Source of the DNA: Candidatus Kaiserbacteria bacterium
GTDB lineage: Bacteria > Patescibacteriota > Minisyncoccia > Phycocordibacterales > Phycocordibacteraceae
DNA: 64,000 bases
NCBI GenBank assembly: GCA_016194455.1
Contig: JACQBN010000018.1
Location: 10,669 to 74,668 of the forward strand
Reading direction: 5' to 3'
Below the pieces are notes generated by a model. The model saw nothing but the letters and a program-made list of their open reading frames with translations. It searched no databases and was not told the DNA's origin. A program made the translations under genes and the position numbers. Within the stretch, counting starts at the first letter, position 1; every line of letters begins with the position of its first letter. Positions 16,748-53,049 of the stretch are shown piece after piece.

Positions 16748-16750
16748 TGA

Positions 16751-17923
16751 CTAGTGGAGACTGGTGGTGATGAGCGCCTCAAGCGCGGGGATTTGCGATG
16801 CGAAGGCAGCCGCAGAACTGACGGGAGATCCGGCGAGAAGCGTCTCGAGTGTGGAGCCGGTCTCTTCGGCATATGCGCGCTGAATATAAGCGGCGGTGAT
16901 GGCGTTGACGTTGCGGGTGTCGGTCGCGCCCTCGACCGTACTCGTGGTGATGGTGGCCGCAAGCTCTCCCGCGGCGTCCGCGACGCCGCCGCCTGAGGAT
17001 CCTTCCTGCGCCGCGGCTGAACCGCCAAGCGCAAGCACGTCAGGGGTGTCGGTCGTGAAGGTGAACACCTGCTTCACACTGCCGAAGACGATAGTGGGGA
17101 AGAGGGTTGATTGTATCTGACTTGGATCAAGAAACTGCGCACCATAGGAGGCGATGGCAACGGGTGAGTCGGGTGCAAGAGCCGCATGGTCAAGCACAAT
17201 CGCAGGGAAATTCGTTGAGAGTACGGTCCCCGGAGTACTGTTACTGGTGGTGAGTGGAGTTGAACCAATAATCGCCAGGAACGCGTAGTCGTGTTCGCCG
17301 TCGCCCGCGGGAGAGGACTCAGTAAGGACGCTCGGGTTTGCGCTCAGCCATGCGCGAGAAATGAACATGAGCGCAGCGCGGTAGCGATCGACTGCTGGGC
17401 TCCCGGTGCGCAGCTCACAAGAGACGCTGTGGTCCGCGAGGAGGAAATACTGCGCGACGTGCGCGTTGGTGAGTACAATGCCGCTTGGCGTAATGATGAC
17501 CCCGCTCGCGGAAATGGACTTGATGGGGGAGCCCGCAGGCGCGTAACAGACGATATTGACGAGCGCGGCGCGGAGCGCCGCGGCAGCAGCATCAAGCGAC
17601 ACGTTGCCCGAAATGGGAGTCACCGGGGGTAGCGCAAGAACTGGAGCGCTCACCGGCTTCAAAGTGGCGGACTTTTTATGCGCAGGGGGAGCTGCACTTG
17701 CGGTTGCTCTGTTTTCCGCGCCTGGCAGGAGCGGGATTGTGCCTGGCAGCAAATTCTCAATCGTGATTGCCGGGCCACCAGTGCCGGAAAGTACGGTCAG
17801 GGTGGAAGAGGCGCTCCTCCCGGCAATGGGCGCCGAGGTGACGGGCGCGATGCGCAGTAGTACGCCGATCAAGAGCACAAAGAAGAGGGCTGCGATGATG
17901 CCCAAATACGGGAAGAGCCGCAT
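16751..17923 (-). CDS. membrane-anchored trypsin-like serine protease (S1 family)
   Basis: N-terminal TM, His motif GVIITPSGIVLTNAHV, Ser motif GSSGGG. No PDZ domain seen. Confidence 0.7.
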   Translation of the reverse strand: MRLFPYLGIIAALFFVLLIGVLLRIAPVTSAPIAGRSASSTLTVLSGTGGPAITIENLLPGTIPLLPGAENRATASAAPPAHKKSATLKPVSAPVLALPPVTPISGNVSLDAAAAALRAALVNIVCYAPAGSPIKSISASGVIITPSGIVLTNAHVAQYFLLADHSVSCELRTGSPAVDRYRAALMFISRAWLSANPSVLTESSPAGDGEHDYAFLAIIGSTPLTTSNSTPGTVLSTNFPAIVLDHAALAPDSPVAIASYGAQFLDPSQIQSTLFPTIVFGSVKQVFTFTTDTPDVLALGGSAAAQEGSSGGGVADAAGELAATITTSTVEGATDTRNVNAITAAYIQRAYAEETGSTLETLLAGSPVSSAAAFASQIPALEALITTSLH

Positions 17924-17962
17924 GGCGCTAACGCTACTCTAAAAATGGTATTCTCGCACTAC

Positions 17963-18033
17963 GCGGGATTAGTTTAATGGTAGAACGTCAGTTTTCCAAA
18001 CTGAGAGCGGGAGTTCGATTCTCCCATCCCGCA
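17963..18033 (+). tRNA. tRNA-Gly (anticodon TCC)
   Basis: Acceptor GCGGGAT/ATCCCGC, anticodon arm TCAGT-TTTCCAA-ACTGA, T-arm GGGAG-TTCGATT-CTCCC. Ends 1 nt before rarA ATG. Confidence 0.85.
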
Positions 18034-18034
18034 C

Positions 18035-39127: not shown

Positions 39128-39553
39128 CTAGCCGGTGCGTTTGGGGGCGAAGCGGCCGCCGAGGACGATGGCGAGCGTGACGACGCTGTAGATGATGCCG
39201 AGGAGGCGCGCGGCGCCCTCGCGCGAGAGCTCGGTGCCCACCGGCATCGGGATCGGGAAGACGAAGACGAGGAGGGCGGCGGCAATCGGGACGAAGTAAT
39301 AGCTAAACTTAAGCCACCTCTTGAACTCTGTTTCGCTTGCGAAAAAGAGGACAGCCGCGACCAGCGCGAGCCACTCGCCAATGGAGAGAAGAGGCAGGCC
39401 AACATTCACACCAGTATCAACTTGGCAGATCCAAGAGACATTGTCCGCGCCACGACAAAGTCCATATGGTAAGGGGTTGGCGAAAAAAGTGCCGACAAAA
39501 TAAAAAACTGCGGCGATAAGAAGGAGTGAGAGTTTTAGATAGATATTCTTCAT
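39128..39553 (-). CDS. hypothetical polytopic membrane protein
   Basis: 4 hydrophobic segments. No motif. Confidence 0.45.
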   Translation of the reverse strand: MKNIYLKLSLLLIAAVFYFVGTFFANPLPYGLCRGADNVSWICQVDTGVNVGLPLLSIGEWLALVAAVLFFASETEFKRWLKFSYYFVPIAAALLVFVFPIPMPVGTELSREGAARLLGIIYSVVTLAIVLGGRFAPKRTG

Positions 39554-42450
39554 GGGCTGAGCAGACCCACTAGTTGTAGCATGAAGAGGGCCTGCGCTTG
39601 TGTGATCTGCTTGCCCGACTGTGCGTTAATCAAGCTCTGCAGATTGCTCAAGGCGCCCCGGAGCACTTCCTTTTTGCTGCCAAGATTCGCCTCCACTTTG
39701 TCGAGCGCCTTGCTGAGATCGGTTTTGACCCCCTGCGCTGCGCCTAGCGTATTGATATACGAGCGCAGGTAGGCAATCAGCTGGGTCGGCGAGAGTACGG
39801 GAGCTCCTGGGGTGTAGGTGAAGTCGCTTGAACCGTTGCCGTCTTCGTCTACCGAAACCGCACCCACGGTGCCGTTACTGACCGAGAACGTAGCGGTGGT
39901 GGAGGCGATAAGCGGAATATTGCGGAAGGAGACGGTCGTGCTCGCCGAGCCGTCGGCCTGTTCCGCGCCAACGTTCAAGGTCGCGTAGCCGCCGGCGTAG
40001 GCCTGCATCGAGATCGTGTAGCTCCCGCCGGCGGGCAGATAGAGATACTCCTCGTCGCCGAAGGTCTGCACCGAGCTGCCCGGTACGTCCTCAAGGAGAC
40101 CGGTAAAGTCGGTCCCGGGCATCGGTAGAATCCCCGTTCTGTTCCCGCTCGCGTCAGTTGCGACAATGTTCACGGGCGAGCGGGTACTGATTATGGTAAT
40201 TGGATTTAATCCGCCTGGCGGTCTAGTCGATGAAATAAATGACCCGAGAGAATTTTTGCCTTCAAGAATAGATTCGACGATGTTTTGAATTGGAGAGGCA
40301 GCGGTCAAGTTTTGATGAACAATATTTTTTCTAGTCGCGTGGAAAAACGCTGAAGTGTCAAAATAAGCTTTACCTGCAGTATCCCCAAGCGCGCTGGCGT
40401 CGATGACGGTGTCGTCGCCGTCCTGCGTGTTGACCGGGGCGTGCTCGAGCACTTGCCTCACGCCGCACGAGAAGACGCCGGAGACCGAATCGCAGGAATA
40501 TTTCGTGCCGGTGGTGTAGGCGAGGGTCTTGAGCGTCTTCTGCCCCCAACCGGCGATGGCGGTCACCGCGATGCCTGACGGCGGCGTCCAGGCGTCGAGC
40601 TGCGCGTGGGTCGCCTGGGCCTTTTGCAGCAGCGTGGGCGAGAGAGCGAGAGGCGTCGTGAGCGCGCCCGGATCGCCCACCGTTGCATCAAGATGAGCGG
40701 GGTCGCTTAAGAAGTTCGCGAGCGCGCTGTAGTTGGTGGTTGTTGCGCCGTAACTCTCCGCGTACTTCCCCGCGAGCGAGGTCGCGTCGAAGGTGGCGAC
40801 CGGGTCGGCAATGCGAGCGAAGTACGCGGGCGCCGGTAAGAGGCCGAAGGCGCCCGGCATCGTGCTCGCGACGGCGCGCGCAGCCGTTTGATTGATAATG
40901 AGACTCGGAATATCGGCGAAGTTGTCGGCGTGGAGGAGCGCGCCAATGCTCGAAGGCGTGCCGTATTGCGGCGTGCCGATCATGATGATGCGGTCGATAT
41001 ACTTGGGCGCGTCCGCCCCGAGCGTGATTGCAAGCGCCTTGGCGAGGAGGCCGCCGTTACTGTGCGCGACGATAGTCACCTTGCCGGTGGCCGAGTTGGA
41101 CGCCATCTGCTTCAAGACATCCGCGAGATAGACGCGCGTTATCGAGCCGTCGGGCTGTTCCGTCAGCGTGCCGTTCTGCACAATGTCGAAGACGTCGTAG
41201 CGCCAGTCGTAGGGGTACGCGCGCCACTCCTTGATCGTGCCGGTGGCGACAAGGCCGTCCATAAACTGCTCGAAGGTGCCGTACACCTCGAGCGTGTCGA
41301 AGAGGCCGGCAATGGTACTCGCGCTCCGGTTATGCGCCTGGATTGAGTCCACGATATCTTTTGTGTAAATCTGGGCCTTGCTCGAGCCGTCGGCGTTGAG
41401 CGCAAGCGGCGGGAGATCGGTGGAGAGCGTGGGCTCCCAGAGCTGGTGCTCATTGCCAAGCAAGGTATCACGCGTGTATAAACGGCTTCCTTCAATCCCA
41501 GGCAGGAAGAGGACGCTGGAAACCTTTGGCGCTCCACAGCCGCTCGCGAAGGAGTCGCAGGCGAGGAAGGGAAGGACCGACACCATCGTTGGTTCGTTGA
41601 AGCCGACATTCACAAGGCCGTTCGGGTTCAGCGCCGCCCAATACGGGCCCGACGCGTCGCCCCACCAGTTGTTCTCCATATGGACGGAGAAGGTGCCGAG
41701 ATAGTAATCGAGCGCCGCACCGCGCAGGCCGTCTATGCTGCTTTGGTGCATGAGCAGTGTTGTGGGGGAGGGGCTGCTGCTCGTCCACAAGCGGGCTATG
41801 TAGTTCTCGCCTTGGAAGAGATCGTTCTCGAGATCGAGGAGGCCTTGTGAGCCCATATAGACCTGATAGCCAGGAACGTTTTCAAAAACGCTGTCGGCTA
41901 TAAGCACCCGTGCGCCCGTGAGTACATAGACATTGCCGACATATCCGCCAGAGCTTTGTACTGAAAGGAGGGTGGAGTTTGCATCGCCGGCCACTCCCGC
42001 GTAGCGGAAGCGGATATGCTCGAGCGTGCTCGTGGCGTCCGTACCGGCAAACTGGATTGCGCCCCAGCGATTCTGCTCTGGATCCGTGGCAGTGCCGTCG
42101 CCGTTCGTGTCGCCGCCCACGCTGTCGTCGGCGATGGAGGTGAAGACGACGGTGCTTGAATCGGAGGTGCTCCCGGCATTGAGAGTGCCGTTTACTTCAA
42201 TGGCAGCCTCGCCGAAGGGGTTGTTAAAAAACTTGACGACCACGCCCGGATCAATGGTGAGCGTAGCGCCCGGACTAATCGTAAGCGGCTCCAACACCTC
42301 AATCGGACTCCCGGCAGTCGTCCACTCGGTGTCGGCACTGACGACGACCGGGGCGACGGTCGCCGCCTCCGCGCTCTGCGCGGAGGCGGCGACACCAACG
42401 CACAAAATGGAGCACAAAAGAAAAAGCGTGCGAGCGCGCATCGGGCACAT
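39550..42450 (-). CDS. giant secreted protein: N-terminal beta-helix-like domain + alpha/beta-hydrolase (lipase/esterase, GHSxG) domain
   Basis: Track ORF 39550..42738 trimmed to signal peptide M(CP)MRARTLFLLCSILCVGVAASAQSAEA. Gly/Thr/Asp-rich repeats typical of right-handed beta-helix. VLFLPGIEGSRLY plus nucleophile elbow GHSNGGLLAKA. Confidence 0.7.
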   Translation of the reverse strand: MCPMRARTLFLLCSILCVGVAASAQSAEAATVAPVVVSADTEWTTAGSPIEVLEPLTISPGATLTIDPGVVVKFFNNPFGEAAIEVNGTLNAGSTSDSSTVVFTSIADDSVGGDTNGDGTATDPEQNRWGAIQFAGTDATSTLEHIRFRYAGVAGDANSTLLSVQSSGGYVGNVYVLTGARVLIADSVFENVPGYQVYMGSQGLLDLENDLFQGENYIARLWTSSSPSPTTLLMHQSSIDGLRGAALDYYLGTFSVHMENNWWGDASGPYWAALNPNGLVNVGFNEPTMVSVLPFLACDSFASGCGAPKVSSVLFLPGIEGSRLYTRDTLLGNEHQLWEPTLSTDLPPLALNADGSSKAQIYTKDIVDSIQAHNRSASTIAGLFDTLEVYGTFEQFMDGLVATGTIKEWRAYPYDWRYDVFDIVQNGTLTEQPDGSITRVYLADVLKQMASNSATGKVTIVAHSNGGLLAKALAITLGADAPKYIDRIIMIGTPQYGTPSSIGALLHADNFADIPSLIINQTAARAVASTMPGAFGLLPAPAYFARIADPVATFDATSLAGKYAESYGATTTNYSALANFLSDPAHLDATVGDPGALTTPLALSPTLLQKAQATHAQLDAWTPPSGIAVTAIAGWGQKTLKTLAYTTGTKYSCDSVSGVFSCGVRQVLEHAPVNTQDGDDTVIDASALGDTAGKAYFDTSAFFHATRKNIVHQNLTAASPIQNIVESILEGKNSLGSFISSTRPPGGLNPITIISTRSPVNIVATDASGNRTGILPMPGTDFTGLLEDVPGSSVQTFGDEEYLYLPAGGSYTISMQAYAGGYATLNVGAEQADGSASTTVSFRNIPLIASTTATFSVSNGTVGAVSVDEDGNGSSDFTYTPGAPVLSPTQLIAYLRSYINTLGAAQGVKTDLSKALDKVEANLGSKKEVLRGALSNLQSLINAQSGKQITQAQALFMLQLVGLLSP

Positions 42451-42456
42451 GATACT

Positions 42457-42885
42457 ATGATGCTGATGGAATACCAGGTTCCGCAGTTCATCGAGGTCGA
42501 GGACAAGATCGTCGGCCCACTTACCCTGCGGCAGTTCATCTACCTCGCGGGCGCGGGCGGGCTCTGCGTCATTTTCTTCTTCCTCCTGCCCCTTATTTTC
42601 GCTCTTATCCTCTCGGTTCCAGTCGCTGCGCTCGGGGCTGCGCTTGCCTTCTATCGGGTGAATAGCAAACCATTCATCGAGGTGCTCGAGTCGGCCTTTG
42701 GCTACTACACCTCCTCGCATCTCTTCCTCTGGAAGCATCAGGAGCCGAAGGCCGGCGCCGCAGCGGCGCCGGCCCCAACCACCGCTCCCTTGCCCGCGCG
42801 CGGTACGCCGCGGCTCACGCGCGGCAAGCTCTCGGAGCTCTCCTGGTCGCTCGATGTCAAGAAACCAGAGTCGCTCAAGCCCTGA
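42457..42885 (+). CDS. PrgI-family (VirB3-like) T4SS membrane protein
   Basis: N-terminus MEYQVPQFIEVEDKIVGPLTLRQFIYLAG followed by TM helices is the PrgI family signature. Pro/Ala-rich C-terminus. Confidence 0.6.
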   Translation: MMLMEYQVPQFIEVEDKIVGPLTLRQFIYLAGAGGLCVIFFFLLPLIFALILSVPVAALGAALAFYRVNSKPFIEVLESAFGYYTSSHLFLWKHQEPKAGAAAAPAPTTAPLPARGTPRLTRGKLSELSWSLDVKKPESLKP

Positions 42886-42887
42886 CC

Positions 42888-43544
42888 ATGGCCACCAAAC
42901 CCGCTGGCGCGACGCAGAACTTTGTTCCGATCAAGGAGATCCGGAACGGCATTGTCGTGCTGAAAGACGCCGGCTATCGGGGGATTCTCATTTGTTCTTC
43001 TATCAACTTTGGCCTTAAATCCGCGGATGAGCAGCGCGCGATTACGCTTGGATTCCAGAACTTCCTCAACACGATAGACTTCTCGATCCAGATCGTCGTC
43101 AACTCGCGCCGCATGGATCTGCGGCCCTATCTCGCCCTCCTCGCCGAGAAGGCGCCCGAGCAGCGCACCGAGCTCATGCGCATCCAGCTGCGGGAGTACC
43201 AGGAGTTCATCCGCTCCTTCGCCGAGCAGTCCAACATCATGACGAAATCTTTCTATATCGTCGTACCGTACGCGCCGCGCGTCGAGCTCGGAAAGACCGC
43301 AGCGGGGCTCCTCGGCCGGCGCCAGAACGCATCGGGCGCCGCTGCGGTGGCCGAGAGCTCCTTCGAGGAAGATCGTGCGCAGCTCGAGCAGCGTCTCGCG
43401 CTCGTCTCTGGCGCGCTCTCGGGGACGGGGGTGCGCGCAATCCCGCTTGGGACCGAGGAGATCATCGAGCTCCTCTATCGCTCCTTCAATCCGGGTGAGC
43501 TCGAGAATCCGATCCGCCTTGAATCCTACTATGGCACTTCTTGA
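42888..43544 (+). CDS. VirB4/TraC/PrgJ-like T4SS ATPase, N-terminal domain fragment
   Basis: FVPIKEIRNGIVVLKDAGYRGILICSSINFGLKSADEQ matches VirB4 family N-terminus. Ends 14 nt into the next ORF in another frame. Confidence 0.6.
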   Translation: MATKPAGATQNFVPIKEIRNGIVVLKDAGYRGILICSSINFGLKSADEQRAITLGFQNFLNTIDFSIQIVVNSRRMDLRPYLALLAEKAPEQRTELMRIQLREYQEFIRSFAEQSNIMTKSFYIVVPYAPRVELGKTAAGLLGRRQNASGAAAVAESSFEEDRAQLEQRLALVSGALSGTGVRAIPLGTEEIIELLYRSFNPGELENPIRLESYYGTS

Positions 43545-45348
43545 TTTCATCAACCGCAGGAAGCAAGAGGAGCCGAAGGTCGTTCCGGTCTTGCCGAGAG
43601 ACATTTACAAACAAGGCGCGCTCGACCTCGTCGACACCATCGCGCCCTCCGCGCTTAAGATCGGTGCGCGCGAAATAGAGCTCGGCGAGAAGTTCGTCCG
43701 CTCTTTCTATACTATCTCGTATCCGCGCTTCCTCGCTGACGGCTGGTTCTCGCCCATTGTCAACTTGGACCAAGTGCTTGATATCGCGATCTTCATCCAT
43801 CCCGTCGAGACCGCCTCCGCGCTGCGCGACTTCCAAAAGAAGGTGGCGGAGGTGCAGAGCCAGATCAATGAACGAGAAGCGCGCGGGCTTGTGCGCGATC
43901 CTTTGCTCGATACGGCGTACCAGGATCTCGAGAGCCTGCGCGACAACTTGCAACAGGCGCAGGAGAAACTCTTTGAGGTTGGGCTCTACCTCTCGCTGTA
44001 TGGCGATTCTAAAGAGGCGATAGACAAAATAGAGGGTGACATCCGCGGCATCCTCGATGCGAAGCTCGTCTACACCAAGCCCGCGCTTTTCCAACAAGAA
44101 CAAGGATTCCGTTCCTGTCTCGCGCTCGGCACCGACGAGCTCCTCGTCAATTCAAAGCTGAACTCTTCGCCGCTCTCCTCGATCTTCCCTTTTGTCTCGT
44201 TTGACTTGACCTCCGACCGAGGAATTCTGTACGGGATAAACAGACACAACTCTTCGCTCATCCTCTTCGACCGCTTCTCCCTCGAGAACTATAATTCTGT
44301 CGTCTTCGCGAAGTCGGGCTCGGGGAAGTCCTACGCGACCAAGCTTGAGATCTTGCGCTCGCTGATGTTCGGCACGGATGTCATCGTGATTGACCCTGAG
44401 CGCGAGTACGAGCAGCTCGCGGAGGCGACCGGCGGCCGCTCCTTCCATATCTCGCTCTCAAGCGAGCACCACATCAATCCGTTTGATCTGCCCCCGGTCA
44501 AAGAAGACGAGGACCCGAAGGACATTCTCCGGAGCAACATCATCAATCTCGTCGGTCTCTTCCGCATCATGCTGGGCGGTCTCTCGCCGGAAGAAGACGC
44601 GATTATCGACCGCGCCATCAGCGAGACCTACGCGCTCAAGGACATCACCGGCGACGCCGACTTCACCGGCGCAGAGGTACCTTTGCTCGCCGACTTTGAA
44701 CAAGTGCTCTCGGGGATGGAGGGGAGTGAATCCTTGGTCCAGCGTCTTTCCAAATACACGCAGGGGACGTGGGCGGGCTTTATGAATCAGCCGACCAATA
44801 TTGATATCAACCAGCAGTTCGTCGTCTTCTCCGTGCGCGACATGGAGGATGAGTTGAAGCCGGTCGCGATGTATGTGGTCACGCACTACATCTGGAACGC
44901 CATACGCCATGAGCTCAAGAAGCGTCTCCTCGTGATCGACGAGGCGTGGTGGATGATGAAGAGCGAAGACACCGCTTCCTTCCTCTATTCCGTCGCGAAG
45001 CGCGGAAGAAAGTATTATCTCGGAGTCGCGACCATCACCCAGGACGTTGAAGACTTCCTTAAGAGCCCCTACGGCCGGCCGATCCTCACGAACTCCTCCA
45101 TCCAACTGCTCCTCAAACAGTCGCCGACGACCATTGATCTCCTGCAGCAGACCTTCAATCTCACGGAAGAAGAAAAATACCTGCTGCTTGAGGCAGGAGT
45201 CGGCGAGGGGCTCTTCTTCGCGGGCCTCAAGCACGTCGCGATAAAGATCGAGGCGAGCTACACCGAGGATCAAATCATCACCTCCGACCCGTCCCAGCTC
45301 TTGGCGATAAAGGCGGAGAAGGAGCGCTATGCCTCTCAACAAAAGTAG
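43531..45348 (+). CDS. VirB4/TraC/PrgJ-like T4SS ATPase, C-terminal ATPase domain (frame-shifted relative to N-terminal fragment)
   Basis: Walker A VFAKSGSGKSYATK, Walker B LLVIDEAWWMM, C-terminal ITSDPSQL. Start set at MALLDF overlapping the upstream fragment; the track ORF starts at 43375. Confidence 0.75.
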   Translation: MALLDFINRRKQEEPKVVPVLPRDIYKQGALDLVDTIAPSALKIGAREIELGEKFVRSFYTISYPRFLADGWFSPIVNLDQVLDIAIFIHPVETASALRDFQKKVAEVQSQINEREARGLVRDPLLDTAYQDLESLRDNLQQAQEKLFEVGLYLSLYGDSKEAIDKIEGDIRGILDAKLVYTKPALFQQEQGFRSCLALGTDELLVNSKLNSSPLSSIFPFVSFDLTSDRGILYGINRHNSSLILFDRFSLENYNSVVFAKSGSGKSYATKLEILRSLMFGTDVIVIDPEREYEQLAEATGGRSFHISLSSEHHINPFDLPPVKEDEDPKDILRSNIINLVGLFRIMLGGLSPEEDAIIDRAISETYALKDITGDADFTGAEVPLLADFEQVLSGMEGSESLVQRLSKYTQGTWAGFMNQPTNIDINQQFVVFSVRDMEDELKPVAMYVVTHYIWNAIRHELKKRLLVIDEAWWMMKSEDTASFLYSVAKRGRKYYLGVATITQDVEDFLKSPYGRPILTNSSIQLLLKQSPTTIDLLQQTFNLTEEEKYLLLEAGVGEGLFFAGLKHVAIKIEASYTEDQIITSDPSQLLAIKAEKERYASQQK

Positions 45349-45907
45349 CCCGCGCCCCAAGGTAATGACCTGGAAGAAGGCACTGCCCATTCTTGCTCTC
45401 GCGGGGATTTTCGATGCGATCCGCTTCGCATTTGAACAATTTTGGCTCTTCGGGCCCATTCTCGTCGGCACTGCCACAAACAGTTTCTTTGGTGGTGGGG
45501 CGATCGGAGGTGTGGCGGGAAGCATTGCTGGCAAAACATCTTTTCTCGCGGGCCCCGAGCTTGAGGTTTTCGGCATCGTGATGGCAGCCGTGGTCGGACT
45601 CGCGGGGTGGGGAACAATCGGCTTTTTACTTCTTGTATTCAATCAGCGCTTTTTTAAAGCGAACGCATCAAATACCCTCTGGTTCCTCTCTAGTCTGGTC
45701 GTGAGCGAGATACCGATCGTCGGGAGCGTCCCCGCACTTTTCGCTGCGACCTTCAAGGGCTATCATTCGCAAATAAAAAGAGAAAAAGCGGCGCTGAAGC
45801 GCTGGGAGAAAGAGCGAACCGAGATGCAAAAGAGAAATCGGGACGCGCGGCTCGCCGAGCAGTATGCAGCGGCAGAACAAAATGAGCTGGCAGAGGCGAT
45901 ATACTAG
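45329..45907 (+). CDS. polytopic membrane protein in T4SS-like operon (VirB6/TrbL-role candidate)
   Basis: ~4 TM helices with Gly-rich loop, charged coiled C-terminus. Likely real start MTWKK at ~45365. Confidence 0.45.
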   Translation: MPLNKSSPRPKVMTWKKALPILALAGIFDAIRFAFEQFWLFGPILVGTATNSFFGGGAIGGVAGSIAGKTSFLAGPELEVFGIVMAAVVGLAGWGTIGFLLLVFNQRFFKANASNTLWFLSSLVVSEIPIVGSVPALFAATFKGYHSQIKREKAALKRWEKERTEMQKRNRDARLAEQYAAAEQNELAEAIY

Positions 45908-45911
45908 AAGC

Positions 45912-46907
45912 ATGAGTCTTTGCGCGCAGCTAGCGTTCTTCGCGGCAATTACCGCGGCTCTGCTCCTGCCCGCAAGCGCGCTCGCGCAATCTCTTGTAGT
46001 CCCGTCGGGGCTTACTCTGACAGTCTCCCCGCAGTACCCGACGCCCTACGGGGAAGTCCTTATTACTCCGCTCTCGACGACTTTTGATCTCGTCAACGCC
46101 TCGTACACGCTCTCGGCCAACGGGAACGTCGTTTATCGCGGCAACGCGAAGCCCTTCGCGGTGGCCCTCGGCGCGGCAGGCAGCGTCACGAGCGTGAAGG
46201 CAATGGTCACGGGCAGCGGTGGCAGCGTGAGCCAGAGCATCTCAATCCGCCCGCAGGATGTTGCGCTCGTCGCCGAACCACTCTCGTCAGTCCCGCCGCT
46301 CTACCCGGGCAAGGCGCTCGTTCCGCTTGAGGGGAGCGTGCGGGTCGTCGCGGTTGCGAATTTGCGCTCGAAGGCCGGCAAGCAGGTTGATCCTTCGGCG
46401 CTCTCCTACGACTGGACGCTCGACGGCACCGAGCTCGCGGGCTCCTCCGGCATCGGCAAGAGCTCGATCACCGTCGCTTCGCCGCTCCAGTATCGCGCGG
46501 GCAGAGTCTCGGTCGTCGTGAAGAGCCAGGATGGTGCGCTCGCGAGCGGCGACTTGCTCTCGCTCACGCCCGTAGAGCCCTCGGTGCGTGTCTACGAGGA
46601 CGATCCTCTGCTCGGCGTGCGCTTCGAGCGGGCGCTTGCGGGCTCCTACGCGCTTGCAGGAGCAGAGACCACCCTCTATGCGGTCCCGTACTCCTTCCCG
46701 CTTGCGCTCGGCGCGCCCGTCCTCCACTGGTTCCTCAACGGCAGCGCAGCGCAGACCGGCGACTTCGTTACGCTGCGGCCCACGGGGAGCGGAGGAGGGA
46801 GCGCAAATGTCTCCCTGACCGCTACTGCGGGGGACTTCGCGCGCGCGAGCGCTGTGCTCTCGCTTACCTTCAACGCAAACGCGAGCGCTACTCTCTTCGG
46901 ACTATGA
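45912..46907 (+). CDS. secreted protein in T4SS-like operon
   Basis: Signal peptide MSLCAQLAFFAAITAALLLPASALA^QS. Beta-rich. Start placed after the upstream stop. Confidence 0.45.
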   Translation: MSLCAQLAFFAAITAALLLPASALAQSLVVPSGLTLTVSPQYPTPYGEVLITPLSTTFDLVNASYTLSANGNVVYRGNAKPFAVALGAAGSVTSVKAMVTGSGGSVSQSISIRPQDVALVAEPLSSVPPLYPGKALVPLEGSVRVVAVANLRSKAGKQVDPSALSYDWTLDGTELAGSSGIGKSSITVASPLQYRAGRVSVVVKSQDGALASGDLLSLTPVEPSVRVYEDDPLLGVRFERALAGSYALAGAETTLYAVPYSFPLALGAPVLHWFLNGSAAQTGDFVTLRPTGSGGGSANVSLTATAGDFARASAVLSLTFNANASATLFGL

Positions 46908-48004
46908 AAAAGATAATTTTCGCGGCCGGATTTATTCTAAGCTTCACGGCATTCGCTCCAGCGGCATTCGCCGAGGGCGATATTGGCCAGGCGGATTGGC
47001 CCTGCTTCGACGCCATCGACCCGACCCAGCCGACAACCTGCGATACTGCAAACGGGTATCACTTCGTTCCGCTTGCGCCCATCCCCGGCCTCACCGCAGA
47101 CCAGAACGGCACCCCATTTATTGGTACGCCGGATCTCCCGAGCTTCTTGAACAACCTGTATCAGTACCTGATCGGGTTTGCGGCTGCGCTCGCGGTGATT
47201 TATGTCATCTGGGGAGGACTAGAAATTTCCACCCAGGACAGCGTGAGCAAGCAGAGCGATGGCCGCAAGCGCATTGAGGGCGCACTCTTCGGCCTCGCGC
47301 TTGTGCTCGCTCCCTATCTCGTCTTCTACGTCATCAACCCCGCGATCGTGAATCTCTCGCTCAATCTCCCCGCGCTCCAGACCCAAGGCGGCACGTTTGG
47401 GACGGGTGTGAACTCCCCGACGCAGTCAACGACAGCGGCAAACGGAGTGACTACGACGGTAACAGGCACGTACCTCCAGACCGCGCACTTCGCCTCAAAC
47501 GACCAAACCAACAACAATAACGCCCGAGACGCCTGGGTAAGCAGCTGTAACTCCTCCGGCGGAGTCGGGTACGCCGCGCAAGACAGTGGGTGCGGATCGA
47601 ACGTTGTCCCTGCCGGAGGAAAAACGACCTGCGTCTCCACAAGCGACGCCATTGCTAAATGCGCAACGTTTTCAAAGTCCGCATATAACTTCGTCAACAT
47701 TGGTGCGGCCTGCAGTGGTGTTATCAGCTGTTTTGCGTCAATCGATTTACAGCCCTTAAACACTGACGCTTCTGCTGTCTCGGGCTTCGTGGGGGCGTGT
47801 TCCTCGGATGGAGGATACGCGTGTATAGCAGCGGGTACTGGTTTAAGCATACCCCACGGTTTGGGCCTCCGAGAGCTGAGCGCGTGCCCGGAGGCAATAA
47901 CGGGGCTAGCAGGAAACGCTAGTGGAAAATGTTACCAAGCCGGTCTCTTCTGCGCCCGGACTCAGGGGGCTAGTCAGTGCGCGGCCAACACTACGTTGCA
48001 TTAA
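46904..48004 (+). CDS. VirB2/TrbC-like pilin-type protein with Cys-rich C-terminal domain
   Basis: Signal peptide, then two hydrophobic helices (LYQYLIGFAAALAVIYVIWGGLEI ... GALFGLALVLAPYLVFYVINP), then ~170-aa domain with ~14 Cys. ATGA overlap upstream. Confidence 0.45.
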   Translation: MKKIIFAAGFILSFTAFAPAAFAEGDIGQADWPCFDAIDPTQPTTCDTANGYHFVPLAPIPGLTADQNGTPFIGTPDLPSFLNNLYQYLIGFAAALAVIYVIWGGLEISTQDSVSKQSDGRKRIEGALFGLALVLAPYLVFYVINPAIVNLSLNLPALQTQGGTFGTGVNSPTQSTTAANGVTTTVTGTYLQTAHFASNDQTNNNNARDAWVSSCNSSGGVGYAAQDSGCGSNVVPAGGKTTCVSTSDAIAKCATFSKSAYNFVNIGAACSGVISCFASIDLQPLNTDASAVSGFVGACSSDGGYACIAAGTGLSIPHGLGLRELSACPEAITGLAGNASGKCYQAGLFCARTQGASQCAANTTLH

Positions 48005-48007
48005 ATT

Positions 48008-49213
48008 ATGCGCCGGACTTTAATCATCATCGCGACAGTGGTAGTCCTCGCTGGGGTTGGGGCGTGGGTGTACTTCTCCTTCTTCGCGGGCTCTGCCGGA
48101 GTCGCGGTCGCTCCGGCGGGGAATGCTGGTTTGCCGATCGCGGGGCAGGGAACTCAAAACGGTTCTGCCCCTTCGGGCGCAACTGCTGGAGCGCCTTCGG
48201 CGCCCGCTGCGCCAGTGAAAGTCTCTCCGCGCCTGGTACAGATTGATAAAGGTCCGGTCGTCCCGGGCGAAGTCGCACGAGATATTAAAATTTCTTCCAC
48301 AACGAATGACGTTGTGGTTTCTTATGTCGAGCGCCAGAGCGGCAACGTCTTCTCCTACTTCGTGAACGCGGGCACGCTCACCCGGACCAGCAACCGCACG
48401 CTTCCGGGCATCGAGGAAGCCTCGTGGCTTCCCGATGCCTCGCTTGCCTTCGTACGCTACCTCTCGGGGACAAACTTCAGCATCACCAACACGTACGCGC
48501 TCCGAGCCGATGGCTCAAGCGGGTTCTTCCTGCCGCAGAATCTCGCCGGAGTCTCGGTCTCTTCAACAACGATTCTCGCGCTTGCCTCGGGCGGTAACGG
48601 CTCCGTAGTCTCTCTGGTAAAGAGCGACGGTACCCGCGCGACCCAGGTCTTCACGACGCCCCTCTCCTCGATCCGTATTTCGTTTGCGGGCAAGAACCAG
48701 TACCTCGTCGTCACCAAGCCCTCCGCGACACTGCCGGGTGATGCGTATCTTGTGGACAGCGCAGGACACTTCTCGCGCGTCGCGGGGCCGCTCTCGGGCC
48801 TCGTCGCGCTCGCGAGTCCTTCAGGCACATGGGCGCTCGTGAGCTCGGCTGCAAACGGCACCATGCGTCTTGAGCTGGTGAACGCTTTGACCGGCTCGGC
48901 GCTGCCGCTCCCGGTCGCGACCATCGCGGATAAGTGCGCTTGGGCTCTTGATGAATCCGCGGTCTACTGCGGCGTGCCAATCTCGCCGAGTGCGGCATAC
49001 TCCTACCCCGACGACTGGTATCAGGGCGCTGCGCATTTCTCTGATCGGATCTGGAAAATAGAAGTCACTGGGCGCTATGCCGAGCTCGTGCTTGATTTCA
49101 ATAAAGAAACGAAAGGGCTCTTGGACGCAGAGGCGCTCGCGCTTGACCCGCAGCGCTCCGCGCTCGCGTTTCTCAACAAAAACGACGGCTCGCTCTGGTC
49201 GTATCAGCTCTGA
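48008..49213 (+). CDS. N-terminally TM-anchored extracytoplasmic protein in T4SS-like operon
   Basis: MRRTLIIIATVVVLAGVGAWVYFSFF anchor, then Ser/Thr/Gly-rich beta region. Confidence 0.45.
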   Translation: MRRTLIIIATVVVLAGVGAWVYFSFFAGSAGVAVAPAGNAGLPIAGQGTQNGSAPSGATAGAPSAPAAPVKVSPRLVQIDKGPVVPGEVARDIKISSTTNDVVVSYVERQSGNVFSYFVNAGTLTRTSNRTLPGIEEASWLPDASLAFVRYLSGTNFSITNTYALRADGSSGFFLPQNLAGVSVSSTTILALASGGNGSVVSLVKSDGTRATQVFTTPLSSIRISFAGKNQYLVVTKPSATLPGDAYLVDSAGHFSRVAGPLSGLVALASPSGTWALVSSAANGTMRLELVNALTGSALPLPVATIADKCAWALDESAVYCGVPISPSAAYSYPDDWYQGAAHFSDRIWKIEVTGRYAELVLDFNKETKGLLDAEALALDPQRSALAFLNKNDGSLWSYQL

Positions 49214-49929
49214 GGCCGAAGTGCGCGGCGCACATACCATTCCTGCAAGGCACCGGCGAGGTTCGTGGTAATGAAGTAGAGCGCGATGGCGCTCGAGGTC
49301 GTGTAGGAGATCACACCGATAAGAACAGGGAAGACGAACCGCATCTGCATCCCCATCACTCTCTGGACATCGCCTTGCATGCCAGTCCCGAGAGCGGGCT
49401 TCATCGTGCCCGAGAGCGCGAGGTGCGCCTGGAGAAATTGAGAGGCTCCGGAGAGTGCGGCCAGTACGATTGACTTACCGGCGACCGAGATGAGTCCCAG
49501 AAAGAGGAGAGAGATGTGCTGTGGCACGGGCGTGAAGGCGTAGAGCCGCGCGGTATCAATCGAAGAAAACGGCTCGTAGCGAAAGACCCAGTAGAGCGCG
49601 AGGAGCACCGGAATCTGGATGAAGACGGTCAGGATGCTCGCGAAAGGATTCACCCGCCGCTCGCGATAGAGTGCGAGCGTCTCAAGCGCTTCTTTTTCTT
49701 TGTCGCCCTTATGTTTCTCTTTGAGTTCCTTCACGTGCGGCTCAAGGTCTTTCATCGCGCGCTGGGTCCGCGCTGCCGAAAGCGAAAAAGGAAGGAGGAG
49801 GAGGCGAATGGCAACGGTGAGGAGGATGACCGCGACGCCGACGTCCCCGCCCGGGACGAGGGCGACGAGGGCGACGAGCGCGTTATAGAGCGGATTGTAG
49901 AACGCCGCGTGGAAGAGGGTACTGATCAC
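49204..49929 (-). CDS. yidC: membrane protein insertase YidC (short form)
   Basis: 5-TM 60-kDa-IMP core. Conserved synteny rpmH-rnpA-yidC. Confidence 0.8.
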   Translation of the reverse strand: MISTLFHAAFYNPLYNALVALVALVPGGDVGVAVILLTVAIRLLLLPFSLSAARTQRAMKDLEPHVKELKEKHKGDKEKEALETLALYRERRVNPFASILTVFIQIPVLLALYWVFRYEPFSSIDTARLYAFTPVPQHISLLFLGLISVAGKSIVLAALSGASQFLQAHLALSGTMKPALGTGMQGDVQRVMGMQMRFVFPVLIGVISYTTSSAIALYFITTNLAGALQEWYVRRALRPQS

Positions 49930-49938
49930 GGCTACAGT

Positions 49939-50262
49939 CTACGATTTTCCGATGATTTTAGAAAGAAGGCTCGCCAGCTCCGCTTTGATTTCCTCGGACG
50001 AGAGTGCGAGGGTAGAAACTTTTGGGAAAACAATGAGCGCGGGCGGCAGAGGGAGCGCGCGAAGCACCGAAAGAACGCGACGCTTGAGGCGGTGGCGCGT
50101 GACCGAGAACCGTGCGACCTTTTTAGGGATGACTACTGCATAGCCGTGGAGATTGCCGGCCGGAACAACGAGTGAGAAGTGCGCCGAGGATGCTCGACGG
50201 CCGCTCGCGGCTATTGCAGAGGAAAAACCGCTTCTCGCAAGGCGCTGAGAGCGCGGAAACAT
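49939..50262 (-). CDS. rnpA: ribonuclease P protein component
   Basis: RLKRRVLSVLR-type basic RnpA motif, 107 aa, immediately downstream of rpmH. Confidence 0.75.
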   Translation of the reverse strand: MFPRSQRLARSGFSSAIAASGRRASSAHFSLVVPAGNLHGYAVVIPKKVARFSVTRHRLKRRVLSVLRALPLPPALIVFPKVSTLALSSEEIKAELASLLSKIIGKS

Positions 50263-50399
50263 CAGTGCGAGAGGCGGGCGCGCCCGACGCGACGGCGCCC
50301 GCGCATGATCTTACGGCCTGAGCTTGTCGACGAGCGCTTGCGGAAGCCATGGGTGCGGGCGCGCTTGCGACGTTTCGGTTGATAGGTTCGTTTTGCCAT
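50262..50399 (-). CDS. rpmH: 50S ribosomal protein L34
   Basis: Not in ORF track. Reverse-complement translation gives [45 protein letters not shown] (45 aa), a textbook L34. Confidence 0.8.
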
Positions 50400-50489
50400 G
50401 GTAAAAAGTTATGCACACCATACTAACAGGTTCTCCCCGAAGCGCCAGGATTTGCAGAATCGGCCCGACGCGTATAATCCCCTCTATCT
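50400..50489 (+). promoter_or_regulatory. rpmH/dnaA divergent promoter region with DnaA-box-like TTATGCACA and TATAAT -10 element
   Basis: TTATGCACA at ~50409-50417 (1 mismatch to TTATCCACA). TTGCAG-N15-TATAAT at ~50452-50478, 11 nt before the dnaA ATG. Confidence 0.3.
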
Positions 50490-51839
50490 ATGGAGAAAGA
50501 GAATCCTCGCGAACTGTGGGAGTACGTGCTCAGCCAGGTGGAACTCTCGATATCCCCCGCGAACTTCAACACCTGGTTTCGCGATAGCCACATCGTCAAG
50601 GTAGAGGAGGGGATCGTGTACGTGGGCGTCCCGAGCCAGTTCTTCAAGGATTGGTACTTGAAGAAGTTCCATACGCTTCTGCTCAAGATCGTCCGCGACG
50701 TTTCCTACGAATTCCGCACCGTGGAATACCTCATCGTGAAGGACGAGCGCCGGAAACCCGCCAAAGAACCTCGGCACGACCGCAACGCTCCGGAATTGCC
50801 GCTCGCGGACTTCTATATCAACAAGAGCGACAATCTGAATCCGCGCTACACCTTCGAGAACTTCGTTATCGGCGCCTTTAACAACCTCGCATGCGTTGCC
50901 GCGCGCGCTGCCCTGGAGCGTCCTGGCATCACCTACAACCCGCTCTTCATCTACGGAGAGACGGGCCGTGGCAAGACGCATCTCATCCAAGCAATCGGCA
51001 ATCAATACAAGAAGCAGTACCCGGGGCGGAAGGTTTTCTATCTCACGTCTGAAAAGTTTGTTGTTGACTATACCGATTCGCTGCAGACGGGGAGCGCCAA
51101 CCGCTTCAAGGACAAGTATCGGCAATACGATTTGTTGATTATGGACGACGTGCAGTTCCTCTCCAAGAAGGAAAAGAGTGAGGAAGAACTCTTTCACCTC
51201 TTCAACACGCTCCACGACACGAACAAACAAATTGTTTTTTCTTCCGATCGGTCCCCTGTGGCGATTCCCGACATCGCAGAGCGGCTGAAGGGTCGCCTCG
51301 CGAGCGGTATGACGGTGGACATCGGGGAGCCTGACCCGGAATCGCGCATGGAGATTATACGTCGCAAAGCGTCGCTTCACGGCATCATCCTCTCGGACGA
51401 GGTTGTGGAGTATGTCGCAGCGAACACGACCGGCTCCATCCGCGAACTCGAGGGAATGGTGAACAGTATTGTTTGTCACGCGCAGGTGAAGGGGGCGGCG
51501 CCCGATATTGCAGAAGTGCGACAGTCGCTCCGCTCTTTCGCGCGACCGCAGAAGACAATCTCGGTGAAGAACGTGGTGGGGAAAGTCGCGGAGTTCTACG
51601 GGATTGAAGAGGAAAGCATCTACGAGAAGACGCGGCGGCGAGAGGTCGTGCGCCCGCGCCAGATCATCATGTATATCCTGCGCGAAGACTTCAGTATTTC
51701 GTATCCGACGATTGGAACGAAGCTCGGAGGGAGAGATCACACAACTGTTATCCACTCTTGTGAGAAGATAAAGCGTGAAGTGGTTGTGGATAACGACTTG
51801 GCGAAGGACATCCAGAGTATCCGCACTTTGTTGGTATAA
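50490..51839 (+). CDS. dnaA: chromosomal replication initiator DnaA
   Basis: GETGRGKTHL Walker A, LIMDDVQFL, C-terminal GGRDHTTVIHSCEKI DNA-binding domain. Confidence 0.95.
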   Translation: MEKENPRELWEYVLSQVELSISPANFNTWFRDSHIVKVEEGIVYVGVPSQFFKDWYLKKFHTLLLKIVRDVSYEFRTVEYLIVKDERRKPAKEPRHDRNAPELPLADFYINKSDNLNPRYTFENFVIGAFNNLACVAARAALERPGITYNPLFIYGETGRGKTHLIQAIGNQYKKQYPGRKVFYLTSEKFVVDYTDSLQTGSANRFKDKYRQYDLLIMDDVQFLSKKEKSEEELFHLFNTLHDTNKQIVFSSDRSPVAIPDIAERLKGRLASGMTVDIGEPDPESRMEIIRRKASLHGIILSDEVVEYVAANTTGSIRELEGMVNSIVCHAQVKGAAPDIAEVRQSLRSFARPQKTISVKNVVGKVAEFYGIEEESIYEKTRRREVVRPRQIIMYILREDFSISYPTIGTKLGGRDHTTVIHSCEKIKREVVVDNDLAKDIQSIRTLLV

Positions 51840-51948
51840 AAAATATGAAATTTTTTCAACATATTTATCAACGAGTAAGAGCTAAAAACCTTAACATTTA
51901 CGTACTTTTTTGCTTTTCCCCACTATCAACCCCTATAATAAGTACTTC
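51840..51948 (+). promoter_or_regulatory. AT-rich dnaA-dnaN spacer (candidate oriC / DNA unwinding element)
   Basis: ~70% AT in a ~62% GC genome. TTATCAAC and CTATCAAC DnaA-box-like repeats. TATAAT 11 nt before the dnaN ATG. Confidence 0.35.
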
Positions 51949-53049
51949 ATGTTTGTTTCTATAAACAGAAAGGTATTTTCTGATGCGGTGTTAATAGCAG
52001 CACGTTTTGCTGAACGTCGGGCGGCAACCCTTCCCGTTCTCTCTTGTCTTCTTTTTGTTGCAAGCGACGAGGGAATCAAGCTCCGCGCGACCAATCTAGA
52101 GACCGCCGTGGACCTTAAGGTTAAGGGGGTGTGTAAAAGTAAGGGAGTCGTCGCAGTTCCCGCCACTGTCCTCCAACAAATCGCCTCGTCGCTTACGGGG
52201 GAAGGAGACATCACTCTCGAACACACTGGGGACACTCTCACTCTTAAAAGCGGGTCAAGTAAAAGTTCACTCAAGACACTCCCTTATGACGATTTTCCTT
52301 CCATCCCGTTCCCCGAGAGTTCTAAGAGCCGCCTTCTACTCTCGGGAATGGTTTTGAAATCCCTTCTCTCCTCTCTTGTGTCGTGTTCCTCTCCCTCTAC
52401 TGTCCGTCCGGAGCTCGCGAGCGTGTATCTTTCTGCTGAGGGAGGGGTATTGACCGCAGTTGCGACCGACTCCTTTCGTCTCGCAGAGAAAAAAATTCCA
52501 CTCCCCGGTCGCGGCACACAAGGGAAGTTGCTGATACCAGCGAAAAATGCTGCCGAGATCGCTCAAGTACTTCCTGACGAGGAAGTTATCGTTTCGTTTG
52601 ATGAACACCAGTGTGCGTTTGTCGGTAGTTACGGTATGTTCGTTACTCGCCTTACTAACGCGACCTTCCCGGACTACCGTCAAATCATCCCGAAGGAGTC
52701 GGTCGCCGAAGCCATCGTACTCCGCAAGGACTTTGAAACCGCACTCCGGAGGACAACCATCTTCGCCGACTCGTTTCAGAAGGTAAAAATCGGCTTTGAG
52801 CCCAAGACAAAGAAACTCTCTCTCTACGCCCGGAACATCGACCTCGGCGAATCCTCCGAGTCCATTCCCGCGCAGGTCTCGGGTAATGCTCTCGAGCTCT
52901 CGTTTAACCACCGCTACCTCTCTGCTTCTCTCTCTCTCGCCCAATCAGAGAGCATCTCGCTCACCGCCGCAGGGGCCGGACGGCCCGTCCTCGTCCGGGG
53001 TGTCGGGGACTCTTCGCTCCTCTATTTGGTCTCACCGATGAACCAGTAG
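51949..53049 (+). CDS. dnaN: DNA polymerase III beta sliding clamp
   Basis: Start trimmed to MFVSINRKVFSDAV. Three-domain beta clamp, directly after dnaA. Confidence 0.9.
   Translation: MFVSINRKVFSDAVLIAARFAERRAATLPVLSCLLFVASDEGIKLRATNLETAVDLKVKGVCKSKGVVAVPATVLQQIASSLTGEGDITLEHTGDTLTLKSGSSKSSLKTLPYDDFPSIPFPESSKSRLLLSGMVLKSLLSSLVSCSSPSTVRPELASVYLSAEGGVLTAVATDSFRLAEKKIPLPGRGTQGKLLIPAKNAAEIAQVLPDEEVIVSFDEHQCAFVGSYGMFVTRLTNATFPDYRQIIPKESVAEAIVLRKDFETALRRTTIFADSFQKVKIGFEPKTKKLSLYARNIDLGESSESIPAQVSGNALELSFNHRYLSASLSLAQSESISLTAAGAGRPVLVRGVGDSSLLYLVSPMNQ

What the first reader, a model, noticed from the sequence alone, without database searches (positions are those of the whole stretch)
43375..43560. 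VirB4 ATPase is split into two overlapping reading frames (N-terminal domain and ATPase domain)
ORF 42888-43544 encodes a typical VirB4 N-terminal domain and ends YYGTS*. The ATPase domain continues in the +2 frame from MALLDF at 43531, a 14-nt overlap. No homopolymer or obvious slippery site sits at the junction. Possible explanations are a genuine two-gene split with translational coupling, programmed frameshifting, a recent inactivating frameshift, or an assembly indel. Which of these applies determines whether the T4SS-like system is functional.
Basis: seen in the sequence. Interest (0 to 1): 0.6.

Follow-up and report, generated by a model that had tools for sequence, protein, structure and literature searches.

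The report
Ordinary two-gene TrsD-like/VirB4 pair
[quoted passage not shown] It is not a frameshift or an assembly error.

Summary
ORF1 (42888-43544, 218 aa) and ORF2 (ATG 43531-45348, 605 aa) overlap by 14 nt in different frames. Together they cover a VirB4-like ATPase: ORF1 matches the N-terminal ~120-180 positions of single-chain VirB4 profiles and ORF2 matches the rest. It is not a lesion. In all 79 distinct related loci (GTDB species-representative genomes) where the junction can be read, the gene is divided at the same residue (…ENPIRLDx* / MALLD…). The spacers run from 1 to 885 nt, fall in all three relative frames, and in five loci contain whole inserted genes. Both genes are under strong purifying selection (dN/dS 0.11 and 0.05). 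The 14-nt overlap is unique to this genome. The ancestral stop position reads TAC instead of TAA, which adds five codons (YYGTS). The same division exists in Firmicutes plasmids, including staphylococcal pSK41 TrsD/TrsE. A 2025 paper describes TrsD homologues next to virB4 as the most abundant T4SS component of Patescibacteria, usually near dnaA, as here. Verdict: a genuine, functional two-gene system that is already known. Interest is low.

The parts
42457..42885 (+). PrgI / VirB3-like small membrane protein (142 aa)
   Evidence: Pfam PF12666 PrgI, E 1.8e-12. The same gene sits directly upstream in relatives and in Firmicutes plasmids.
42888..43544 (+). ORF1: free-standing VirB4 N-terminal module (TrsD-like / Pfam 'TraC-like'), 218 aa. 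The last 5 codons (YYGTS) are a genome-specific extension.
   Evidence: NCBIfam matches the N-terminal part of VirB4 profiles (E 1.5e-8 and 9e-6). There are 5146 homologues and the best 120 are all 209-225 aa and carry PF26593. The AF2 model has pLDDT 89.4 and its top 14 Foldseek PDB hits are all TrwK/VirB4 chains. dN/dS is 0.106.
43527..43529 (+). TAC codon at the position where relatives have the ORF1 stop codon (TAA/TGA/TAG)
   Evidence: Junction alignment of 80 relatives' junction rows (79 distinct loci). 117 of the 119 other closest protein clusters end at ...NPIRL[DEN]x.
43531..43544 (+). 14-nt overlap of ORF1's end and ORF2's start (ATGGCACTTCTTGA)
   Evidence: It is unique to the window among the 81 junction rows.
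43531..45348 (+). ORF2: VirB4-like ATPase (605 aa), second half of the N-terminal region plus the P-loop ATPase domain. Walker A is AKSGSGKSY and Walker B is LLVIDEAW.
   Evidence: NF045971 conju_CD1110, 373 bits against a cutoff of 325, E 3e-111. PF19044, E 2e-25. 4AG5, E 2.3e-45. Collinear with pSK41 TrsE from residue 2-3. About 90% identical across species and dN/dS 0.049.
45329..49213 (+). Rest of the tightly packed T4SS-like operon: 192-aa, 347-aa, 366-aa (T4SS pilin-like) and 401-aa ORFs
   Evidence: PF18895 T4SS_pilin, E 1.1e-5, for 46904-48004. Same gene order in relative L001. Gene gaps are 2, -14, -20, -44, -4 and 3 nt.
49204..53049 (.). yidC (-), dnaA (+) and dnaN (+): replication-origin neighbourhood
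   Evidence: Pfam 60KD_IMP 3e-39, Bac_DnaA 5.8e-62, DNA_pol3_beta 7e-26.

Best explanation
This is a genuine, ancient two-gene organisation of the VirB4 motor of a monoderm-type (MPF-FATA-like) type IV secretion system, on the chromosome of a Candidatus Kaiserbacteria (Patescibacteria) bacterium next to dnaA. ORF1 is a free-standing copy of the first ~200 residues of VirB4, called TrsD-like in the conjugation literature and 'TraC-like' in Pfam. ORF2 is the rest of VirB4. Shown: the two are made as separate polypeptides from adjacent cistrons of one compact operon (PrgI/VirB3-like, then ORF1, then ORF2, then membrane proteins and pilin-like genes). Inferred: the two proteins associate non-covalently to rebuild a VirB4-like protomer, and the ORF1 module sits at the membrane-proximal face, where the N-terminal region of single-chain VirB4 contacts VirB3 in the R388 structures. 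The cut falls in a variable linker. The 14-nt overlap is a trivial local variant: a single-base change (TAA to TAC) at the ancestral stop lets ORF1 run five codons into ORF2. Inferred: translation of ORF2 is probably coupled to termination of ORF1, as for the other overlapping or abutting genes of this operon, most of which lack a Shine-Dalgarno sequence.
For: ORF1 and ORF2 match consecutive parts of single-chain VirB4 profiles. The best 120 of 5146 ORF1 homologues are all 209-225 aa stand-alone proteins. Among representatives of 50%-identity clusters, 148 of the best 150 are under 450 aa. In 79 distinct loci from GTDB species-representative genomes the stop of ORF1 and the ATG of ORF2 (M[AS]LLD) lie at the same residues. 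Spacers are 1-8 nt in 61 junction rows (60 distinct loci), 24-50 nt in 14, and 552-885 nt with inserted genes in 5; relative frames are +1/0/+2 = 33/27/21 rows including the window. dN/dS is 0.106 for ORF1 and 0.049 for ORF2, with dS about 1.7. Relative L001 has the same operon. The ORF1 AF2 model is confident (pLDDT 89.4) and its top 14 PDB fold matches are all TrwK/VirB4 chains (probability 1.0, TM 0.41-0.58). The ORF1-family profile matches residues 63-236 of a fused 866-aa Clostridium protein (98.3% probability, E 2e-14). It also matches pSK41 TrsD collinearly (E 1.4e-4). ORF2 aligns with pSK41 TrsE from its very first residues, so the cut point is the same as in the staphylococcal TrsD/TrsE pair. 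Firmicutes plasmids show PrgI, a stand-alone module and VirB4 with overlaps of 11-14 nt. The literature reports TrsD as remotely homologous to the VirB4 N-terminus, with 2,272 homologues in Patescibacteria, 1,664 of them next to virB4. The TrsD homologue is listed as essential in Ca. Southlakia epibionticum, and the clusters often lie near dnaA/dnaN (PMC12102498). The window has dnaA 1.3 kb downstream.
Against: No direct evidence here that the two proteins bind each other or that both are expressed. Sequence similarity of ORF1 to the narrow NCBIfam TrsD/TraD model is insignificant (12.8 bits, E 0.077, cutoff 200). Its sequence similarity to TrwK is also insignificant (hhalign probability 1.3%), so the link to diderm VirB4 rests on fold only. 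The direction of evolution (fission of a long VirB4, or an ancestral separate module later fused) is not resolved. A sequencing error at the TAC codon cannot be excluded, but it would only restore the usual 1-nt spacer.
Confidence: 0.93

Rival explanations
1. Recent inactivating frameshift: a single-chain ~820-aa virB4 was broken in this genome, so the T4SS is non-functional.
For: The two ORFs overlap out of frame, and a 1-nt deletion or a 2-nt insertion would join them. Rare fused homologues exist: P0216, 797 aa, and a C. sporogenes 866-aa gene.
Against: Every one of the 79 distinct related loci has the same two genes, cut at the same residue, in all three relative frames and with spacers up to 885 nt. 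Both genes show strong purifying selection. ORF2 has its own conserved ATG and N-terminus, which is absent from the fused homologue. Walker motifs are intact.
Confidence: 0.01
2. Assembly or sequencing indel at about 43520-43550 that artificially splits one gene.
For: The source is a metagenome-assembled genome. The overlap and the YYGTS tail are unique to this genome.
Against: An indel cannot explain the split, because relatives from dozens of independent assemblies are split at the same place. The difference from relatives is a base substitution at the stop codon (TAA to TAC) with the frame relation unchanged. At most, that single base could be an error, and it would have no consequence for gene content.
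Confidence: 0.02
3. Programmed ribosomal frameshifting, or stop read-through, produces a fused full-length VirB4 from the two frames.
For: The junction is an out-of-frame overlap here. In 27 relatives the two ORFs are in the same frame.
Against: There is no slippery heptamer or homopolymer. The frame relation is not conserved (33/27/21). Spacer length and sequence are not conserved, and longer spacers contain further stops or whole genes. The N-terminus of ORF2 (MALLDF.., with its ATG) is conserved in all junction rows.
Confidence: 0.01
4. ORF1 is an unrelated accessory protein that merely sits upstream of a naturally short VirB4. On this reading there is no 'split' at all.
For: The Pfam-A copy used here gives no hit for ORF1. 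No PDB sequence hit was found. Gram-positive VirB4 proteins of ~600-670 aa such as TrsE are regarded as complete proteins.
Against: ORF1 matches the N-terminal parts of two single-chain VirB4 NCBIfam models (E 1.5e-8 and 9e-6). It matches the N-terminus of a fused Clostridium protein (98.3% probability). Its predicted fold hits only TrwK/VirB4 chains above noise. A 25-nt deletion is enough to fuse the two genes in frame in a Clostridium plasmid. The published view is that TrsD is remotely homologous to the VirB4 N-terminus.
Confidence: 0.03

Closest known systems
TrsD + VirB4 of the Patescibacteria (CPR) chromosomal T4SS (Quinonero-Coronel et al. 2025, Microb Genom, PMC12102498; essentiality data of Wang et al. 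2023 cited there)
   Same: Same phylum and the same gene set: PrgI/VirB3-like, TrsD-like, VirB4, VirB2-like pilin. The cluster lies next to dnaA/dnaN. TrsD is described as a remote homologue of the VirB4 N-terminal portion and is found next to virB4 in 1,664 cases.
   Different: Nothing substantive. This genome has a 14-nt overlap caused by loss of the usual stop codon. All 79 distinct relatives examined have a 1-885-nt spacer instead.
TrsD / TrsE of Staphylococcus aureus pSK41 and pGO1 (MPF-FATA, pGO1 subclass)
   Same: A small protein (227 aa) lies directly upstream of a ~670-aa VirB4-like ATPase. ORF2 aligns with TrsE from residue 2-3 to the end (E 3e-39). The ORF1-family profile aligns collinearly with TrsD over 163 columns.
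   Different: Very divergent. ORF1 scores only 12.8 bits against the NCBIfam TrsD/TraD model (cutoff 200). pSK41 is a conjugative plasmid, annotated with MobA/MobL- and MobV-family relaxases and a VirD4-like coupling protein; this locus is chromosomal, near the origin, and I saw no relaxase among the ORFs I annotated.
PrgI, 'TraC family protein' and VirB4 in Bacillus, Clostridium and Pontibacillus plasmids
   Same: Same three-gene order. The stand-alone module is 24-30% identical to ORF1. Short out-of-frame overlaps (11-14 nt) occur between the two genes.
   Different: The stand-alone proteins are longer (257-328 aa). In pCBG a clear Shine-Dalgarno sequence precedes the ATPase start. They are plasmid-borne.
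Single-chain VirB4 (TrwK of R388; CD1110 and Mbov_0397 families; P0216; C. sporogenes AM553 866-aa gene)
   Same: ORF1 plus ORF2 together are collinear with these proteins. The ORF1 fold matches TrwK chains.
   Different: They are one polypeptide. In P0216 the linker is shorter and lacks the first ~28 residues of ORF2. The Clostridium fusion arose by a 25-nt deletion that removed the stop, the SD and the ATG.

Membership tests
VirB4-like T4SS ATPase (NCBIfam NF045971, CD1110 family): ORF2 | Whole-protein HMM score above the curated cutoff (325 bits) | tested here: met
   373 bits, E 3e-111, profile positions 183-734 of 752.
VirB4-like T4SS ATPase: ORF2 | P-loop ATPase C-terminal domain with Walker A and Walker B, homologous to a solved VirB4 C-terminal domain | tested here: met
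   4AG5, E 2.3e-45, over ORF2 residues 230-585. GSGKS and VIDEAW are visible in the translation. PF19044, E 2e-25.
VirB4-like T4SS ATPase: ORF2 | N-terminal ~180 residues of the family profile present in the same polypeptide | tested here: not met
   Profile positions 2-121 are matched by ORF1, a separate cistron.
VirB4-like T4SS ATPase: ORF2 | Encoded with other T4SS components (VirB3/PrgI, pilin, membrane proteins) | tested here: met
   PrgI is upstream and a T4SS_pilin-like gene is downstream. Same order in L001.
TrsD/TraD family (NCBIfam NF041427): ORF1 | HMM score above the curated cutoff (200 bits) | tested here: not met
   12.8 bits, E 0.077, collinear 14-126 / 20-142. pSK41 TrsD itself scores 227.6 bits.
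TrsD in the broad sense (CONJScan MPF-FATA TrsD profile, as used in PMC12102498): ORF1 | Match to the CONJScan TrsD HMM profile | not testable with these tools
   That profile is not available here. The paper reports 2,272 Patescibacteria homologues found with it. As a surrogate, the ORF1-family profile against pSK41 TrsD gave hhalign E 1.4e-4 and probability 52.6%.
TrsD in the broad sense: ORF1 | ~200-230-aa protein encoded immediately upstream of virB4 and after the VirB3/PrgI-like gene, with remote homology to the VirB4 N-terminus | tested here: met
Pfam PF26593 'TraC-like': ORF1 | Match to the Pfam model | tested here: inconclusive
   Precomputed tables assign PF26593 to the identical protein P0001 and to all of the best 120 homologues. 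My own hmmscan against the Pfam-A copy held here returned nothing, even at E<=1. The model seems to be absent from that copy.
Programmed -1/+1 ribosomal frameshift site | Slippery sequence, with a frame relation and junction sequence conserved among relatives | tested here: not met
   No slippery site. Frames are 33/27/21 and spacers 1-885 nt.
Pseudogene (frameshifted virB4) | Relaxed selection, and an intact single ORF in close relatives | tested here: not met
   dN/dS is 0.106 and 0.049. No related locus has a single ORF.

The most novel reading that the evidence does not exclude
The free-standing N-terminal module may be more than a passive piece of VirB4. It could be a separately dosed, exchangeable adaptor whose docking to PrgI/VirB3 controls when the ATPase hexamer engages the membrane channel of this essential, probably non-conjugative Patescibacterial T4SS. 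That would explain why the two-gene state is kept so strictly, and why ORF1 evolves about twice as fast as ORF2. [quoted passage not shown]
Probability: 0.15. Interest if true: 0.4.

Novelty: already known. Interest (0 to 1): 0.08.

Why it matters
The T4SS-like system of this genome is intact, so annotation pipelines and readers should not flag this junction as a frameshift or pseudogene. The TrsD-like/VirB4 pair is a core, origin-proximal and strongly conserved feature of Patescibacteria. It is reported essential for epibiotic growth in the one species tested (PMC12102498). The only open biology is what the separate N-terminal module does, and that question is already posed in the literature.

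Tried and rejected
I considered and rejected three readings by comparing junctions in relatives: frameshift pseudogene, assembly indel, and programmed frameshifting or read-through.

Several searches led nowhere.
- Sequence searches of ORF1, and of its family profile, against PDB sequences found nothing meaningful.
- hhalign of the ORF1-family profile against TrwK was insignificant (probability 1.3%), although the best alignment fell at TrwK residues 14-140.
- The Pfam-A copy held here gave no hit for ORF1, nor for pSK41 TrsD.
- The main text of Guglielmini et al. 2014 (PMC4027160) does not contain the word TrsD. I therefore cite the homology statement only from PMC12102498.
- Accession BR000038 was not in the collections. 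NC_028464 was used for R388 instead.
- P0230 (4223 aa, 23 matched stretches) is a repetitive eukaryote-like protein and a spurious hit.
- The promoter and terminator scan showed nothing above the shuffled expectation inside the operon.

Full report
**Observation**

- ORF1 runs 42888-43544 (218 aa, ending …NPIRLESYYGTS, stop TGA 43542-43544).
- The ATPase ORF begins with ATG at 43531 (MALLDFINRRK…) and ends at 45348 (605 aa).
- The overlap is 14 nt, and ORF2 is in the +1 frame relative to ORF1.
- No homopolymer or slippery heptamer lies at the junction.
- The finding's start coordinate, 43375, is only the first GTG of the open frame. That upstream extension is closed by stops at varying positions in relatives.

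**What the two ORFs are**

NCBIfam places ORF2 in the CD1110 family of VirB4-like conjugal-transfer ATPases. It scores 373 bits against a cutoff of 325 (E 3e-111), but covers only profile positions 183-734 of 752. ORF1 matches positions 2-121 of the same profile (E 9e-6) and positions 102-236 of the Mbov_0397 VirB4 profile (E 1.5e-8). The two ORFs are therefore consecutive pieces of what is one chain in other bacteria.

The cut is not at the boundary with the ATPase domain. The crystallised C-terminal domain of a Gram-positive VirB4 (4AG5) aligns with ORF2 residues 230-585 only (E 2.3e-45). ORF2 thus keeps the second half of the N-terminal region.

An AlphaFold model of ORF1, built on a 92-sequence alignment, is confident (pLDDT 89.4, pTM 0.80). 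Only the last four residues, which are part of the extra tail, fall below pLDDT 50. Its 14 best Foldseek matches in the PDB are all TrwK/VirB4 chains of the R388 T4SS (probability 1.0, TM 0.41-0.58). The next hits are noise. At sequence level the link to TrwK is not significant.

**Context**

- Upstream is a PrgI/VirB3-like gene (42457-42885, PF12666).
- Downstream are small membrane proteins and a T4SS-pilin-like gene.
- The seven genes are packed with gaps of 2, -14, -20, -44, -4 and 3 nt, and mostly lack a Shine-Dalgarno sequence. The overlap is therefore in keeping with the rest of the operon.
- Immediately after the cluster come yidC, dnaA and dnaN.
- The identical ORF1 protein is on record from a Candidatus Kaiserbacteria MAG.

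**Is the split a lesion?**

ORF1 has 5146 homologues. The best 120 (75-83% identical) are all 209-225 aa. Among representatives of 50%-identity clusters, 148 of the best 150 are stand-alone proteins under 450 aa. One is a fused 797-aa protein and one is a spurious repeat protein.

I fetched 80 loci from GTDB species-representative genomes and located both genes in each. The junction could be read in 79 distinct relatives.
- ORF1 always ends at the same residue (…ENPIRL[D/E]x, then a stop).
- ORF2 always starts with ATG, M[A/S]LLD.
- The spacer is 1 nt in 24 junction rows (23 distinct loci), 2-8 nt in 37, 24-50 nt in 14, and 552-885 nt with whole inserted genes in 5.
- Counting the window, the relative frames are +1/0/+2 = 33/27/21.

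A frameshift mutation, an assembly indel or programmed frameshifting cannot produce this pattern.

Both genes are under strong purifying selection against the window's copy. Median dN/dS is 0.106 for ORF1 and 0.049 for ORF2, with dS near saturation at about 1.7.

**Why there is an overlap here**

Relatives read …CGT CTC GAC AAT TAA T ATG GCA…. The window reads …CGC CTT GAA TCC TAC T ATG GCA CTT CTT GA. The frame relation is the same as in the commonest relatives. The stop position, however, is TAC, so ORF1 runs five codons further to a TGA inside ORF2. Of the 119 other closest protein clusters, only two run past the usual end (by one and by four residues). The overlap is a one-base idiosyncrasy. 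A base-call error there cannot be excluded, but it would be inconsequential.

**Breadth, and what is already known**

tblastn of ORF1 against plasmids finds 415 records, mostly Bacillus and Clostridium. In Pontibacillus, C. botulinum pCBG and B. thuringiensis Bt407 the order is PrgI, a stand-alone 257-328-aa protein, then a 620-661-aa VirB4, with overlaps of 11-14 nt.

In a C. sporogenes plasmid closely related to pCBG, a 25-nt deletion removes the stop, the Shine-Dalgarno sequence and the ATG. This fuses the two genes into one 866-aa gene. The ORF1-family profile matches residues 63-236 of that fused protein (98.3% probability). In the fused CPR-like homologue P0216, the junction maps to a short variable linker, and the first ~28 residues of ORF2 are missing. 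The cut therefore sits in a linker that tolerates both states.

In S. aureus pSK41, TrsE aligns with ORF2 from residue 2-3 to the end (E 3e-39). TrsD, encoded just upstream, aligns collinearly with the ORF1-family profile (E 1.4e-4, probability 52.6%). ORF1 is nevertheless far below the cutoff of the narrow NCBIfam TrsD/TraD model.

The literature already covers this. Quinonero-Coronel et al. 2025 (PMC12102498) report the following.
- It was the most abundant T4SS component recovered from Patescibacteria: 2,272 homologues, of which 1,664 are next to virB4.
- The TrsD homologue is listed as essential in Ca. Southlakia epibionticum.
- These clusters often lie near dnaA/dnaN.

The window is a textbook example of that description.

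**Mechanism**

Shown: there are two separate, conserved cistrons, and together they are homologous to one VirB4.

Inferred:
- The two proteins associate to form a VirB4-like protomer.
- The ORF1 module sits at the membrane-proximal, VirB3/PrgI-facing side, as in single-chain VirB4.
- ORF2 translation is coupled to ORF1 termination.

I could not test binding or expression.

**Verdict**

The arrangement is already known. Interest is low.

Noticed in passing
L046 4625-5494; also L017, L027, L056, L079 (and probably L016) between the trsD-like and virB4 genes: In five or six related species the spacer between the two genes holds a 550-885-nt cassette. It encodes a 23S_rRNA_IVP four-helix-bundle protein (PF05635, E 7e-37), with or without a DUF5680 protein (PF18931, E 8e-30). 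In L046 and L027 (repeat scan) the cassette is bracketed by 17-21-nt inverted repeats (perfect in L046, 90% complementary in L027) built of TAGGCNC heptads; the same heptad motif was found on both sides in L079. It looks like an IVS-like mobile cassette sitting in a protein operon. It is absent from the window.
   Followed up: partly
L015, L048, L052, L055, L057-L059, L062, L063, L069, L072, L075, L078, L080 junctions: Fourteen relatives have 24-50-nt AT-rich spacers between the two genes, with repeated TTTAAATATTTAAATATT-like motifs. The rest of these genomes is GC-richer. The role of the spacers is unknown; an internal promoter or a remnant of an insertion are possibilities.
   Followed up: no
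L083 5578-5588 versus L085 (~4065): Two closely related Clostridium plasmids differ by a 25-nt deletion. The deletion converts the separate TraC-family and VirB4 genes into one 866-aa gene, a natural example of gene fusion at this linker.
   Followed up: yes
window 39550-42738 (-): A 1062-aa ORF with an LCAT/PGAP1-like alpha/beta-hydrolase (lipase) core (PF02450, E 7.5e-10) lies upstream and divergent from the T4SS operon. Its mechanical ATG start overlaps the PrgI gene in antisense. The real start is probably near 42420, where a signal-peptide-like MCPMRARTLFLLCSILCVGVAASA begins.
   Followed up: no
window 42888-43544 (database annotation): Precomputed tables assign Pfam PF26593 'TraC-like' to this protein family. 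The Pfam-A copy available for hmmscan returns no hit even at E<=1, so the model appears to be missing from that copy.
   Followed up: partly
L063, L069, L080 (same MAG, WY3.bin61); L019 and L029 (same MAG, SO_2017_GW1_48): Some MAGs contain two or three contigs, each with its own trsD-like/virB4 pair and a different spacer type. This points either to several copies per genome or to mixed strains in one bin.
   Followed up: no
window 15947-18034: Four tRNA genes (Arg-TCG, Gly-GCC, Pro-TGG, Gly-TCC). No other Rfam family reaches its gathering score in the window.
   Followed up: yes
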